Part shown: piece after piece, positions 49,638-53,783 of the stretch
How positions within the stretch are numbered: position 1 is the first letter of the stretch
Layout: each line of letters opens with the position of its first letter
Source: a virus
Length of the DNA stretch: 64,000 bases
Reading direction: 5' to 3' (one strand)
Virus record (IMG/VR): IMGVR_UViG_3300042564_004498
Location: 32,001 to 96,000 of that record
Position numbers and translations under genes: made by a program
The notes under the pieces: model-generated
What the model was told of the DNA's origin: nothing
Database searches by the model: none
The model's input: the letters and a program-made list of their open reading frames with translations, nothing else

Positions 49638-49927
49638 TTTTGATTTCTAATTTGTTTTAACTTAACCTCTAATAAATCAATATTAAATCTGTCGTTTTTA
49701 CTTTTGTTTGGTTTATTTCGTAACTCCTTAATAAGCTCAATAACAGTTTCTTCCTCTGTTTTTTCTTTAACTTCCTCCTTAATCACATCCAAAGGAATGA
49801 TTGGTTCAGGAATATTTTTTTTGATTTGTTTGTTAGCATGACTCTCACCAAGTTTATATGCTCCGTATAGAAGAGCTCCCGCTCCTGCGATTTTAAGGAT
49901 TCCTCCTAATAATGTGTCTCTACTCAT
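49634..49927 (-). CDS. Hypothetical protein with N-terminal hydrophobic helix
   Basis: LLGGILKIAGAGALLYGAY. Confidence 0.6.
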   Translation of the reverse strand: MSRDTLLGGILKIAGAGALLYGAYKLGESHANKQIKKNIPEPIIPLDVIKEEVKEKTEEETVIELIKELRNKPNKSKNDRFNIDLLEVKLKQIRNQK

Positions 49928-50205
49928 TTTGTTTCTAACGCCTCCATTTTAGATTTATTAATAAGATGTTCTGCCAGTGTGTAATTATCAACATTAGTTG
50001 TGATAATTGAATTAACCAAGTGTTTGTGAGGAACATGAACTAAAAAATCAGTTCCGTTAAAGAATGTTAAATCATTCTTAAGTTCAATACAACCTTGAAC
50101 CATTTTCAAAAACAGTTTGAATTGAGTCGCGTTTACAAATGTTTCGCTCAAAAGTACACCGAATGTTTCGTGTTGAATCTTAATGTTATGTGAGTTCATG
50201 TTCAT
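49924..50205 (-). CDS. Hypothetical protein
   Basis: TATCTTTG promoter upstream. Confidence 0.65.
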   Translation of the reverse strand: MNMNSHNIKIQHETFGVLLSETFVNATQFKLFLKMVQGCIELKNDLTFFNGTDFLVHVPHKHLVNSIITTNVDNYTLAEHLINKSKMEALETK

Positions 50206-50264
50206 ATCCCTTTGTTTAGATTACAAAGATAAACATTATTTCTTTAGTAAAAAAATAATTAAAC

Positions 50265-50295
50265 AAAAAAAGGTGTTACATCACTGTAACACCTT
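50265..50295 (-). terminator. Intrinsic terminator of the large ncRNA
   Basis: AAGGTGTTACA-GTGA-TGTAACACCTT followed by TTTTT. Confidence 0.85.
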
Positions 50296-50299
50296 CTTG

Positions 50300-51165
50300 G
50301 CTAATACGATGAGAATACTCGTCTTATTGAGAATCTTTAGAAGGATTATTGTTTCCCTTCGTTTCCACTATCTTTTGGATAGTAATCCTCATTGCCGATT
50401 AGTTAGACTAATCACTCCTTAAGGTAATAACCACTCTCTTACTACTCTACTCTCTTCAACCTTGCGAGCTAACTCAGGATTCGACTCCTTAGAGGTTTTT
50501 GGTAAAAATACGATTGAACTTGGGATTCTTTCGTGCCACGGACCGCCCGTGACTGTGTAGGCAACTTTCGTTATCACCTGACGAACACTTTTCCGTTTTT
50601 CTGTTAGTTTTTCACCTATTGAAAAGTTTGGTTTGTGTTGTGGATGAGTCCAAGTAGAGGTCCGTCTTAGGCTTCGTTATCTTTTGAACAACAAAATACC
50701 TGTCTACTCGGTGAGATATCCCTATCTCCATATTTTAAGATTACTTCAAACGAACACCTTGGTAGATGTTTTGTAAGGTTAGTAGCGACACCACTCGTTC
50801 TCTAACTTACCTTTCGGTTTTAAGTCCCCTCTCATATTGGAGTCCGCAATAATATTGTTGGAACAATATTTTTTGCTTGACCCCTGTGACTTATTCTTAT
50901 TGTTTTTCCAAACTCAGTTCAGGAACCCACATTCCCAAACCATCCAACCACTTTCCCTAAAGCGTCGCCCTCAATACTCAAGGTCGGATGATATGTCACT
51001 TGTATACTCGAGTTCCATTTCTGAAACCGCAATCCTGTTAACACAACAGGTTCACTTTATCCCCCTTTCGAGGTTTATTTGACGACCATATACAGCCGAT
51101 TATCGTTTATTAAATTAGTCTCAATGTCAACCCGAAGGTCTTGATATCAACATCTAAATGGATAA
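50300..51165 (-). ncRNA. Large (~870 nt) highly structured ncRNA, GOLLD-like candidate
   Basis: No credible ORF; many hairpins with GAAA/GCAA/UUCG loops on the minus strand; promoters and boxA-like motif upstream, terminator downstream; adjacent to tRNAs. Confidence 0.75.
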
Positions 51166-51169
51166 TAAT

Positions 51170-51565
51170 ATTTTCAAAGAACGTAATTCATATTAATGAA
51201 GGAAAGGTCAACCTTACCGAAGTGGGATTTTAACCCTTCCTTCATTTCAATTGTTTTACAAAGGTAGATGAAAGTTTTGACACTGTCAAATTTTTATAAA
51301 ACTTTTTTCTAACAATCTTACTCTGTTACTACCGATAGTGAGATTTGATTTCGGTGATTGTTAAAGACCAAATAGTGTTACCCGTTTGGTTTACAAAGAT
51401 AAGAAAGTTTTTTTGAACTGTCAAATCTTTTTTTAGAAATTTTGTGTTTATTTTTTTAATGACCAAAGTCAAAAACCATATTTTATAACACACCCTCTTT
51501 CATGGTCTTGGGGTTATCTCCAATTGTTTTACAAAGATATGAATAACTTTTCAATTAATCAAACA
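51170..51565 (-). promoter_or_regulatory. Three tandem TTTG-N20-TAnnTTTG promoters with boxA-like elements
   Basis: -7 elements at ~51259-66, ~51394-401, ~51532-39; GTTCTTTGAAA ~51173-83; GGTCTTTAACAA ~51358-69. Confidence 0.75.
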
Positions 51566-51590
51566 CTTTTTAAAACTTTTTTTTAATTAG

Positions 51591-51663
51591 TAGCGGGAGA
51601 AGGACTCGAACCTCCGACCTTATGGTTATGAGCCACACGAGCTGCCAACTGCTCTATCCCACG
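51591..51663 (-). tRNA. tRNA-Met(CAT), initiator-like
   Basis: CGTGGGA TA GAGC AGTTGGCA GCTC G TGTGG CTCATAA CCATA AGGTC GGAGG TTCGAGT CCTTC TCCCGCT A; C1 unpaired, A11-U24; no encoded CCA. Confidence 0.92.
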
Positions 51664-51677
51664 ATGTTTGTTGTTAG

Positions 51678-51750
51678 TTGCGTAGGGCCGGAAACGAACC
51701 GACTTGGACTGGCTTATGAGACCAGTGAGATACCTTACCTCCCCCTCGCG
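51678..51750 (-). tRNA. Atypical tRNA-Met(CAT)
   Basis: CTGGT-CTCATAA-GCCAG anticodon arm, GTCGG-TTCGTTT-CCGGC T arm, acceptor stem with a 1-nt bulge and C1.A72 mismatch. Confidence 0.75.
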
Positions 51751-52020
51751 ATATATCATTATTTTAAAGAACTTCAGATAAAAAATCCCACAAGCTACAA
51801 GGGTTTTCTCAAACTCACACTTGCGGGATTTGTTTCACAAAGATAGGAAAGTTTTTTTGAACTGTCAAATCTTTTTTTAACCGCGAAACATTTTCTGGGG
51901 TGTTTGTCCTTTCGGACATGAACATATAAATATGTCCTTTTTTTTAAAAATACAATAATATTATTGAAATGTCAAATAAAAATTCAAATACTATTATGTT
52001 TTCTAAAGTATTTATTTGAT

Positions 52021-52374
52021 ATGAAGGTAAGAATTAACGATAACAGTTTTAATGTAAAAACATTAATTGATAGAGAATCCCAATCAATTGGGATGATGGG
52101 TAAAGCATTTGATGGAACTTTTAATGGATTGTTATTCTTAATGGATGGTAAGAAACAATGTTTTTGGATGAAGGGTTGTGTAATTCCATTAGACATAATC
52201 ATTATAAAGAACAATGTGATTGTAAATATACATCACGATTGTCCTCCATGTAATAATGAATTTGATTGTCCTTCCTATTGTGGAAACGGTAATATTGTAT
52301 TAGAACTTGAGGGTGGTTCTTGTGAAATCCTCAACATTCAACCGGGTGATAGTATCACTTACGACTTATCTTAA
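52021..52374 (+). CDS. DUF192 family protein
   Basis: GMM...GLLF...FWMKGCVIPLDIII...VLELEGG...GD; TATTTAT-N5-ATG. Confidence 0.85.
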   Translation: MKVRINDNSFNVKTLIDRESQSIGMMGKAFDGTFNGLLFLMDGKKQCFWMKGCVIPLDIIIIKNNVIVNIHHDCPPCNNEFDCPSYCGNGNIVLELEGGSCEILNIQPGDSITYDLS

Positions 52375-53783
52375 TCCTCCGAAGAATTTTTAGACTCCTC
52401 AATTTTTTTCTTTAATACTTTTTGAAATTCAGTAGCAATCATTTTTGTAAACTTAACTGATGGTGAATCATCTTTCTCAGAATCATACTTATACTTACCT
52501 TGTGGTGGTCTTTTACCTCTACCTAAATAATTAAGTCCTGAGATATTGGTAATACATTTGTGACCACCAGAATTAGACTGAATTAAATCCCAAGCATTAA
52601 TACCAATTTTATCCATCAATTCAAGTTCTTGTTCAGATAATTCATTGAATGGTTTTTCCATCATTCTTTCAATTTTTCCTAAGGCTTCTTCTCCACCGTC
52701 CATGAATACAAATTTTCCACCGTAAAGAGCGTCAAAGTCTTTAAAAGTAAAACCAACACTTTCAGGTCCAGCACTTGTTTCACTAACCCATTTCATAGTT
52801 GACAAAGGAATTTTCCTATCCTTTAATTGAGATTCCCATCTAACCAAAACTTCTTGAGCTATCTCCCCAAGATTAACCCCTTTAAGTTCTCTTTCTTTTT
52901 TAAACGGATTACAAGATGCTTGAACAAGACCCATCGGCCAAGCCATGATAAGAAAATCCGCCTCAGGATTATTTCTGAATGGTGTATATCTGTCGTAAGA
53001 CCCAGGCTTAAACATACTACCCCCACCGTATTGAAAAATAATGTTATCAGACACTGTTGGATAGTCTGCCATTTTGTCTGCATAATCTTGTGCATTTTTT
53101 TGTAAGTCTTCAGGTTTGGCGGCATTTGTTTTTGTCATCCAAGCTCTAATGTTATTTAGTATAGACAATAAAGAAGGTTCAGAATCCATAACCAATCCTT
53201 CTAAAAATCCTGGTTTGTTTTTAAAAGCTAAAAGTAATTTGTTTATTACTAAACCTAATAACATTTTATTCTTTTGTAATGAAGAGTCTTTATCTATTCT
53301 GTAGATATAATTAACCACTTCTTTTGGTGTAATATCATGTTTTGCATAATCCGCAGAATCCACGGTATTAATCAATAATATATCAGATGATGGGAATAAA
53401 TCTGTTGGTGAAACTACTTGAGAAATAGTCTCAACATTTGAACGAGCCCCTCTAAATTGTTTGGAGGTACCCTTTTCAACACCAACTTGTTTATCGTGAT
53501 GGTCTGTGTGAATCACAAACATTGGTTTACCATGAGCAAAATCTACTAGAACAGGCATTGTATCCCCTTGAGCGTCATTCTTTTTAACCGAGAACTCCTT
53601 ATCACCATATTGTATAATATGGGCACCAACAACATCAATACCGTTGTCTTCAAGGTATTTTTTCATCGCAATCGCTGTTGTTACCCCATCAAGGTCTTGG
53701 TGAAAATAAATCTCAGCTTTTTGATATCTTTTCTTTAAGGCGTTGATATTTCTCAACCCTGATTCTGATATAATTCTTTTCAT
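52371..53783 (-). CDS. Tagged DHH-family phosphoesterase
   Basis: MKRIISESG; FHQDLDG, LVDFAH, HTDHH, SGGH. Confidence 0.75.
   Translation of the reverse strand: MKRIISESGLRNINALKKRYQKAEIYFHQDLDGVTTAIAMKKYLEDNGIDVVGAHIIQYGDKEFSVKKNDAQGDTMPVLVDFAHGKPMFVIHTDHHDKQVGVEKGTSKQFRGARSNVETISQVVSPTDLFPSSDILLINTVDSADYAKHDITPKEVVNYIYRIDKDSSLQKNKMLLGLVINKLLLAFKNKPGFLEGLVMDSEPSLLSILNNIRAWMTKTNAAKPEDLQKNAQDYADKMADYPTVSDNIIFQYGGGSMFKPGSYDRYTPFRNNPEADFLIMAWPMGLVQASCNPFKKERELKGVNLGEIAQEVLVRWESQLKDRKIPLSTMKWVSETSAGPESVGFTFKDFDALYGGKFVFMDGGEEALGKIERMMEKPFNELSEQELELMDKIGINAWDLIQSNSGGHKCITNISGLNYLGRGKRPPQGKYKYDSEKDDSPSVKFTKMIATEFQKVLKKKIEESKNSSED

What the first reader, a model, noticed from the sequence alone, without database searches (positions are those of the whole stretch)
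50300..51165. ~870-nt ornate non-coding RNA beside tRNAs (GOLLD-like or a new class)
Seen on the minus strand: hairpins AATATTGTT/AACAATATT (50851-70), CCTGTT/AACAGG (51034-50), GATTAG/CTAATC (50397-413), ACTATC/GATAGT (50367-83), GAGATA/TATCTC and CACGG/CCGTG. Tetraloop stems include ACC-TTCG-GGT, CCTC-GAAA-GGGG, ACC-GAAA-GGT and TAAC-GAAA-GTTG. GC is higher than the flanks, there is no ORF, and promoter and terminator boundaries are clean. Known: GOLLD RNAs are ~800-nt phage/lake-derived RNAs often next to tRNAs, of unknown function. The assignment rests on size, context and my recollection of the 3' region, not on a search.
Basis: partly seen in the sequence, partly recalled or inferred. 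Interest (0 to 1): 0.85.

Follow-up and report, generated by a model that had tools for sequence, protein, structure and literature searches.

The report
GOLLD RNA gene in jumbo phage
The gene-free stretch is a textbook member of the known GOLLD family of giant phage RNAs (which self-assemble into RNA-only cages of unknown function), so the RNA is real but not a new class.

Summary
Rfam's GOLLD model (RF02032) matches window 50306-50711 (minus strand) full-length at 323 bits (cut-off 150, E 9e-92). Rfam models only the conserved 3' domain. The unmodelled 5' half (50712 to about 51184) is homologous at 66-80% identity to the region upstream of the GOLLD 3' domain in about 100 other IMG/VR phage contigs. 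It carries 118 predicted base pairs, 93% canonical across 53 sequences, and 79 of them show compensatory changes. The unit is longer than reported. A Bacteroidota-type promoter (TAnnTTTG at 51266-51259) predicts a start near 51254. A 17-bp leader hairpin follows, then the 878-nt GOLLD body and a strong terminator (50298-50267), about 990 nt in all. Two tRNA-Met(CAT) genes and three more promoter-like sites lie upstream. The window is part of a 145.5-kb phage record estimated about 48% complete. It is not a new class: ROOL, intron, RNase P and tmRNA models give nothing here. Cage formation is inferred from solved GOLLD structures, and no expression data could be obtained. This scan has noted GOLLD RNAs many times before on other DNA. 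By-product: tRNA(CAT) is the tRNA most often abutting GOLLD in relatives.

The parts
51259..51290 (-). Promoter nearest the RNA: TTTG, 20 nt, TAccTTTG (Bacteroidota sigma-A type; the -7 box is at 51266-51259). Predicted transcription start at about 51254.
   Evidence: Pattern scan (14 sites in the window against 3.3 +/- 1.7 expected). The same TAnCTTTG box is the majority consensus upstream of GOLLD in alignment A1. The -7 box lies at -12 to -5 in flavobacteria (PMC9723704). The start site is inferred, not measured.
51195..51246 (-). Leader hairpin with a 17-bp stem, between the promoter and the conserved GOLLD body. Relatives carry a shorter hairpin at this place.
   Evidence: Fold of -24.2 kcal/mol, z -4.8, 0 of 200 shuffles as good. 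Short CGGAAA...CCG hairpins occupy the same position in A1.
50712..51184 (-). GOLLD 5' domain (about 473 nt), beginning with the conserved motif GTTCTTTGAA (51183-51174). It holds about 20 helices, including conserved GAAA-loop hairpins at 51077-58 and 50818-09.
   Evidence: blastn homology to about 100 GOLLD-bearing phage contigs at 66-80% identity. 118 pairs, 93.2% canonical, 79 with compensatory changes; slid controls give 37-42% and 23-28.
50306..50711 (-). GOLLD 3' domain as modelled by Rfam RF02032. It includes the first hairpin with the invariant UCAAAAG loop (50700-50670), the A-rich variable linker (about 50655-50590, no tRNA inside) and the pseudoknot 50578-70/50431-23.
   Evidence: cmscan 323.2 bits, E 8.8e-92, model 1-416/416. 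103 pairs, 94.6% canonical, 70 compensatory. Loop conservation and linker length.
50260..50298 (-). Intrinsic terminator: 14-pair hairpin (50298-50267) followed by a T-run.
   Evidence: Terminator scan. Fold of -17.8 kcal/mol, z -5.7. 37 of 63 non-redundant relatives have a terminator-like hairpin within 80 nt of the GOLLD 3' end.
51590..51663 (-). tRNA-Met (anticodon CAT), same strand, about 400 nt upstream of the GOLLD body.
   Evidence: ARAGORN; Rfam tRNA 55.6 bits. Homologues at 81-88% identity lie directly against GOLLD in relatives.
51679..51749 (-). Second tRNA-Met (CAT), low-scoring.
   Evidence: ARAGORN; Rfam tRNA 30.3 bits, just over the cut-off of 29. Homologues lie just 3' of GOLLD in L029, L030 and L024.
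51394..51869 (-). Three further promoter-like sites of the same type (51869-51838 before the tRNAs, 51563-51532, 51425-51394). No terminator was found between them and GOLLD, so they may all read through into it.
   Evidence: Pattern scan; no minus-strand terminator in 51165-51900. The spacers 51426-51526 and 51291-51388 show no significant fold (z -0.3, -1.2) and no Rfam match.

Best explanation
This is a gene for a GOLLD RNA (Rfam RF02032) carried by an uncultured jumbo phage. Shown here: a full-length, high-scoring 3' domain; a structured 5' domain supported by covariation and shared with about 100 other GOLLD loci; a variable A-rich linker; an intrinsic terminator; and a phage context beside tRNA-Met genes. 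Inferred: transcription by the host RNA polymerase from one or more Bacteroidota sigma-A-type promoters. The nearest one predicts a start at about 51254 and a transcript of about 990 nt whose 878-nt body is the GOLLD fold. Inferred by homology to the solved env-38 and Streptococcus agalactiae GOLLD structures: the RNA self-assembles without protein into a dihedral 12-14-mer nanocage. The 5' domains form the caps, the 3' domains form the rings, and the linker points inward. Most speculative: the cage acts during lytic growth on the translation apparatus, holding or shielding a cargo such as phage tRNA (here tRNA-Met) or ribosomal particles.
For:: RF02032 at 323.2 bits (cut-off 150), E 8.8e-92, model 1-416/416, no truncation; one search repeats this and finds a single copy in the 145.5-kb phage record; the conserved 3' motif occurs in more than 117 IMG/VR contigs, and about 100 of them also match the window's 5' half; 229 consensus pairs, 93.7% canonical, 150 compensatory; slid controls give 38-44% and 42-61. 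The 5' domain alone has 118 pairs, 93.2% canonical and 79 compensatory; the UCAAAAG loop is invariant in 53 sequences. The loop of hairpin 50490-76 switches between GUCGAA and CCGCAA (CG to GC), the pattern Kretsch et al. report for the intermolecular L21a kissing loop. Two adjacent hairpins are present where env-38 has P21a and P21b. Body length is 878 nt against a median of 881 in relatives and 833 for env-38; terminator; promoter type; published GOLLD facts (phage or prophage, near tRNAs, env-38 downstream of a tRNA-Met, 14-mer and 12-mer cages, expression rising at lysis).
Against: There is no expression data for this locus, so the start, the end and any processing are predictions. I could not align the 5' domain directly to the published env-38 or S. 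agalactiae sequences, so the mapping to stems P1-P13 is by scale and features only. Cage formation and stoichiometry are inferred from homologues. Stoichiometry varies between solved members (10, 12, 14). No function is known for any GOLLD, so the functional step is a guess. The host is inferred from promoter type only.
Confidence: 0.93

Rival explanations
1. A new class of large ornate RNA that only resembles GOLLD in size and context.
For: Before any search, size and context alone could not tell GOLLD from ROOL or from an unknown family. Other follow-ups in this scan have found undescribed large phage RNAs.
Against: Full-length GOLLD covariance-model hit at more than twice the curated cut-off. 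The pseudoknot and loop motifs are conserved.
Confidence: 0.01
2. A chimera: a canonical GOLLD 3' domain joined to a 5' domain that is not the published P1-P13 architecture, that is, a clade-specific alternative cap that could change the oligomer.
For: The literature describes the 5' domain as less conserved, and the S. agalactiae GOLLD lacks several 5' stems and forms a 12-mer instead of a 14-mer. The Mycobacterium GOLLD locus (L122) and the MAG loci gave no blastn match to the window's 5' half. I could not align directly to env-38.
Against: The 5' domain is about the same size as that of env-38 (473 against 420 nt) and carries conserved GAAA loops, as reported for L11a. It is shared by about 100 aquatic phage GOLLDs, the same kind of source as env-38 and the Lake Gatun sequences. 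The two huge-phage relatives also have it.
Confidence: 0.05
3. Only the 406-nt 3' domain is the functional RNA. The upstream 470 nt is a spacer, a leader or a separate RNA.
For: Rfam models only the 3' part. The isolated S. agalactiae 3' domain still forms oligomers in vitro.
Against: The 5' half shows covariation as strong as the 3' half. No promoter or terminator lies between the halves. A conserved promoter sits upstream of the 5' motif in relatives.
Confidence: 0.01

Closest known systems
GOLLD RNA env-38 (marine metagenome; PDB 9MEE; Kretsch et al., bioRxiv 10.1101/2024.12.08.627333)
   Same: Same Rfam family. Two-domain build with a variable linker, similar size (833 against 878 nt), aquatic phage-type source, lies beside a tRNA-Met, A-rich L14-type loop, and two adjacent hairpins at the P21a/P21b position with a CG/GC-switching loop.
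   Different: This copy has an extra 17-bp leader hairpin and several upstream promoter-like sites. Its tRNA-Met genes are about 400-500 nt upstream and do not abut the RNA. Its oligomeric state is unknown.
Streptococcus agalactiae GOLLD (PDB 9L0R full length, 9LMF 3' domain; reviewed in PMC12990946)
   Same: Same family and 3' domain; RNA-only dihedral cage.
   Different: The S. agalactiae RNA is shorter (700 nt), lacks P9, P11a-c and P21b, and forms a 12-mer. The window RNA is long and keeps two hairpins at the P21 position, so it looks more like env-38.
Mycobacterium GOLLD inside tRNA arrays (Morgado et al. 2020, cited; locus L122 here)
   Same: Same family (L122 scores 197 bits) and lies next to tRNAs.
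   Different: The Mycobacterium copies sit in large tRNA arrays, and some have a tRNA-Phe inside the linker. Here the linker is 66 nt with no tRNA, and the whole 145-kb record has only 4 tRNAs.
ROOL RNA (phage and prophage cage-forming RNA, octamer)
   Same: Large ornate phage RNA near tRNAs that forms an RNA-only cage.
   Different: Unrelated sequence and fold. No ROOL hit in the window at Rfam's cut-offs.

Membership tests
GOLLD RNA (Rfam RF02032) | Match to the family covariance model above the curated gathering score, over the whole model | tested here: met
   323.2 bits against 150, E 8.8e-92, model 1-416/416, not truncated.
GOLLD RNA (Rfam RF02032) | Conserved 3'-domain helices and long-range pseudoknot, kept by compensatory changes | tested here: met
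   3' domain: 103 pairs, 94.6% canonical, 70 compensatory. Pseudoknot 50578-70/50431-23: 9 pairs, 97% canonical, 8 compensatory.
GOLLD RNA (Rfam RF02032) | Conserved A-rich loop of the first 3'-domain hairpin (L14, used for an A-minor bridge in the cage) | tested here: met
   UCAAAAG at 50686-50680; the CAAAAG core is invariant in all 53 aligned sequences. The assignment to L14 follows the Rfam consensus.
GOLLD RNA (Rfam RF02032) | A structured but less conserved 5' domain of about 400 nt (P1-P13) upstream of a variable linker | tested here: met
   473-nt 5' domain, 118 pairs, 79 compensatory; 66-nt A-rich linker, 52-77 nt in relatives. Stem-by-stem mapping to P1-P13 was not possible, because no reference sequence was available to the tools.
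GOLLD RNA (Rfam RF02032) | Phage or prophage location, usually next to tRNA genes | tested here: met
   IMG/VR virus record of 145.5 kb; two tRNA-Met genes 400-500 nt upstream on the same strand.
GOLLD RNA (Rfam RF02032) | Palindromic or self-complementary loop (L21a) that covaries CG to GC, marking an intermolecular kissing contact | tested here: inconclusive
   The loop of hairpin 50490-76 is GUCGAA here and CCGCAA in most relatives, which fits the published pattern. That this hairpin is P21a is my inference from its position.
GOLLD RNA (Rfam RF02032) | RNA-only homo-oligomeric nanocage (10-14 copies) | not testable with these tools
   Needs mass photometry or cryo-EM of the transcript.
GOLLD RNA (Rfam RF02032) | Transcript present, rising during phage lysis | not testable with these tools
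   The whole-window scan against 4227 families returned only GOLLD and two tRNAs. ARAGORN found no tmRNA.

The most novel reading that the evidence does not exclude
GOLLD and a tRNA with anticodon CAT form a conserved functional pair, not a chance neighbourhood. In non-redundant relatives the nearest same-strand tRNA within 500 nt of GOLLD is tRNA(CAT) in 13 of 29 cases, against 28 of 226 tRNAs overall. In 7 loci it starts within -1 to +9 nt of the GOLLD 3' end, so the two would be made as one precursor. Both of the window's tRNA types are found in that position in different lineages. The cage might therefore store, deliver or shield a Met or initiator-like tRNA during infection.
Probability: 0.12. 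Interest if true: 0.6.

Novelty: new member of a known kind. Interest (0 to 1): 0.2.

Why it matters
For GOLLD itself this adds little: it is one more member of a family with more than a hundred relatives in IMG/VR alone. It does give a cleanly bounded example (host-type promoter, leader, 878-nt body, terminator) from a jumbo phage whose promoters point to a Bacteroidota host. No paper in the searched library discusses GOLLD in that phylum. The comparative set built here shows that the 5' domain of this aquatic-phage clade is as constrained as the 3' domain. It also shows that tRNA(CAT) is the preferred direct neighbour of GOLLD. That is a small but testable clue to a function that is still unknown 17 years after the family was described.

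Tried and rejected
(2) Host from bacterial genomes: the 19-base GOLLD motif hit six genome contigs, three of them Bacteroidota MAGs. Rfam then confirmed only the Mycobacterium locus as GOLLD. About 4 chance matches are expected for that pattern in 596 Gb, so I dropped the MAG hits as evidence. (3) Extra RNA genes between the tRNAs and GOLLD: a permissive Rfam scan of 51150-51900 gave only the two tRNAs and a chance snoRNA hit at E 0.84. The two promoter-flanked spacers do not fold better than shuffles, and only one of them has a single relative (L103). (4) Neighbour genes as partners: a 93-aa ORF, a 470-aa ORF, DUF192, a DNA methyltransferase and DUF3310 recur near GOLLD. Their distances vary from 0.1 to 8 kb and the loci are related phages, so this is shared genome order, not linkage. 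The 470-aa protein has only sub-threshold DHH/DHHA1 signals and no PDB relative. The 93-aa protein has no match anywhere. (5) A literature search for GOLLD together with Bacteroidetes returned only irrelevant papers. (6) DNA search of named phage genomes found only two uncultured huge phages (LR756502, LR745206) and a short Acinetobacter phage match.

Full report
What is there. Read on the minus strand, window 50260-51290 is a gene-free stretch with raised GC: 0.38-0.44 against 0.26-0.33 in the flanks. Only short mechanical ORFs of 81 aa or less overlap it. A scan of the whole window against all 4227 Rfam families at curated cut-offs returned three hits. One is GOLLD (RF02032) at 50306-50711, minus strand, 323.2 bits against a cut-off of 150, E 8.8e-92, covering model positions 1-416 of 416 without truncation. 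The other two are tRNAs at 51591-51663 and 51679-51749. ARAGORN calls both tRNA-Met with anticodon CAT. No ROOL, intron, RNase P, tmRNA or OLE model matched. The window is bases 32001-96000 of a 145,525-bp IMG/VR virus record that CheckV rates 48% complete, so this is probably a jumbo phage. The record holds this one GOLLD copy and only four tRNAs in all.

The half that Rfam does not model. Published work describes GOLLD as a less conserved 5' domain (P1-P13, residues 1-420 in env-38), a variable linker, and a conserved 3' domain (P14-P27). Rfam's 416-position model covers only the linker and the 3' domain. To test the remaining 470 nt, I scanned IMG/VR with a conserved 3'-domain motif (19 specified bases). 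It matched more than 117 contigs. blastn of the window's 5' half against these loci gave matches in about 100 of them at 66-80% identity. The matches run from about 51184 (in some from about 51100) down to 50712. The two named relatives in the phage collection are the uncultured huge phages LR756502 (642 kb) and LR745206 (635 kb). These come from a French lake and a Japanese subsurface sample (PMC9723777). They carry full-length GOLLD hits of 275 and 287 bits.

Structure and covariation. I aligned the window RNA with 52 non-redundant full-length relatives (A1), computed an RNAalifold consensus on the window's columns and counted pairs. Of 229 consensus pairs, 93.7% of cells are canonical and 150 pairs show compensatory double changes in at least two sequences. 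With the 3' partners slid by 1-3 columns the figures fall to 38-44% and 42-61. The 5' domain alone has 118 pairs, 93.2% canonical and 79 compensatory (controls 37-42% and 23-28). That is as good as the Rfam-modelled 3' domain, which has 103 pairs, 94.6% canonical and 70 compensatory. Its 5' arm belongs to the family's long-range pseudoknot (50578-70 with 50431-23; 9 pairs, 8 compensatory).

Features tied to cage assembly. The loop of the first 3'-domain hairpin reads UCAAAAG, and its CAAAAG core is invariant in all 53 sequences. This fits the conserved adenines of L14 that make an A-minor bridge in the cage. At the position where env-38 has P21a and P21b there are two adjacent hairpins. The first has the loop GUCGAA here and CCGCAA in most relatives, a CG-to-GC switch like the one reported for the self-pairing L21a kissing loop. 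Assigning this hairpin to P21a is my inference. Two GAAA-loop hairpins in the 5' domain are conserved. The body measures 878 nt from the 5' motif to the model's 3' end, against 802-930 nt (median 881) in relatives. The linker is 66 nt and holds no tRNA.

Boundaries. Downstream, a 14-pair hairpin at 50298-50267 followed by a T-run is a strong terminator (z -5.7). 37 of 63 relatives have a similar element within 80 nt of the 3' end. Upstream, the majority consensus of A1 reads TAnCTTTGTAAAAC, then a short hairpin, then GTTCTTTGAA...ATTATCCATT. TAnnTTTG is the -7 box of the main sigma factor in flavobacteria and lies at -12 to -5 (PMC9723704). In the window this box is at 51266-51259, with TTTG 20 nt upstream. 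That predicts a start near 51254. A 17-bp leader hairpin follows at 51246-51195 (z -4.8), and the conserved body begins at about 51184. The full pattern TTTG-N18-21-TAnnTTTG occurs 14 times in the window against 3.3 +/- 1.7 expected; no shuffle exceeded 7. This points to a Bacteroidota host, and it is the only host evidence I have. The Bacteroidota MAG contigs that matched the motif in the genome collection are not GOLLD by Rfam and are the chance matches expected for that pattern.

Surroundings. Four of the 14 promoter-like sites lie in a row on the GOLLD strand: before the tRNA pair (51869-51838), at 51563-51532, at 51425-51394 and at 51290-51259. No terminator lies between them. The tRNAs and GOLLD may therefore also be made as one longer precursor. 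The two spacers do not fold better than shuffled sequence and match no Rfam family. Several genes recur near GOLLD in relatives: a 93-aa ORF downstream (31 loci), a 470-aa ORF with sub-threshold DHH/DHHA1 signals (26 loci), DUF192 (21), a DNA methyltransferase (28) and DUF3310 (27). Their distances vary widely and the loci are related phages, so I read this as shared genome order and not as a functional link.

A by-product. Among non-redundant relatives, the nearest same-strand tRNA within 500 nt of GOLLD has anticodon CAT in 13 of 29 cases, against 28 of 226 tRNAs in the same loci. In seven loci it begins within -1 to +9 nt of the GOLLD 3' end. These tRNAs are homologues of the window's two tRNAs. 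The tRNA1 type lies directly 3' of GOLLD in L068, L013, L104, L100 and L081, and directly 5' in LR745206. The tRNA2 type lies directly 3' in L029, L030 and L024. The published env-38 RNA also lies downstream of a tRNA-Met. The loci are related, so the counts are not independent. The different arrangements do suggest that the pairing is maintained.

How it most likely works. Shown: it is a GOLLD gene with both domains under structural constraint. Inferred: the host polymerase transcribes it from sigma-A-type promoters, transcription stops at the terminator, and the RNA folds into two domains. Like env-38 (14-mer) and the S. agalactiae GOLLD (12-mer), it would then assemble without protein into a hollow dihedral cage with the linker facing inward. 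No GOLLD has a known function. The working idea in the literature is encapsulation of tRNAs, ribosomes or other cargo during lysis, and the tRNA(CAT) linkage seen here fits that idea loosely. No expression data could be obtained.

Verdict. The 'new class' reading is rejected. This is an ordinary member of a known, abundant family. This scan has already noted GOLLD RNAs many times on other DNA, including in giant Bacteroidota phages. Interest is low; the tRNA(CAT) association is the only part that might merit follow-up.

Noticed in passing
window 51259-51869 (minus strand): Four Bacteroidota-type promoter-like sites (TTTG-N20-21-TAnnTTTG) lie in tandem over 610 nt. One is before the two tRNA-Met genes and three are between the tRNAs and GOLLD, with no terminator between them. 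The spacers (51426-51526, 51291-51388) show no significant fold and no Rfam match.
   Followed up: partly
window 51291-51388; L103:311-373: The second spacer has one relative: 89% identity over 63 nt, about 100-160 nt upstream of the GOLLD in contig L103. It may be a small conserved element, or only a close relative's spacer.
   Followed up: no
relatives L068, L013, L104, L042, L015, L019, L030, L077 (3' side); L003, L089, L009 (5' side): A tRNA with anticodon CAT abuts GOLLD far more often than other tRNAs do: 13 of 29 nearest tRNAs against 28 of 226 overall. Seven start within -1 to +9 nt of the GOLLD 3' end.
   Followed up: partly
window 51590-51663 (minus strand): Read by eye from the Rfam alignment, this tRNA-Met has a C1 x U72 mismatch and an A11:U24 pair, both initiator-like, but only two G:C pairs at positions 29-31/39-41. 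It may be an initiator-like tRNA; its identity was not tested.
   Followed up: no
window 51679-51749 (minus strand): The second tRNA-Met scores only 30.3 bits (cut-off 29), with irregular D-arm alignment. It could be a degenerate or specialised tRNA.
   Followed up: no
window 50666-50656 with 50589-50580 (minus strand): RNAalifold predicts a 10-pair helix (96% canonical, 6 compensatory) that closes off the variable linker. It is not in Rfam's consensus line and partly overlaps the outer stem of Rfam's first hairpin.
   Followed up: no
window 51181-51174 with 50422-50415 (minus strand): A predicted long-range helix joins the conserved 5' motif UUCUUUGA to UUAAGGAG in the 3' domain: 8 pairs, 90% canonical, but only one compensatory pair. 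It could clamp the two domains together or be an artefact of two conserved motifs.
   Followed up: no
window 49924-50205 (minus strand): A 93-aa ORF with its own TAtcTTTG box lies right after the GOLLD terminator. It recurs downstream of GOLLD in 31 related loci at 73-86% identity and has no match in Pfam, PHROGs or the ESM Atlas.
   Followed up: partly
window 52371-53783 (minus strand) and 51964-52374 (plus strand): A 470-aa phage protein has sub-threshold DHH (20.4 bits against 28.1) and DHHA1-like signals, so it may be a RecJ/NrnA-type phosphoesterase. Next to it is a DUF192 protein. Both recur upstream of GOLLD in 21-26 related loci.
   Followed up: partly
L101:4571-4648; L058:13563-13958; L050:2090-2486; L096:2457-2778: ARAGORN calls a suppressor-type tRNA (anticodon TTA) in one relative's GOLLD locus, and tmRNA genes in three others.
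   Followed up: no
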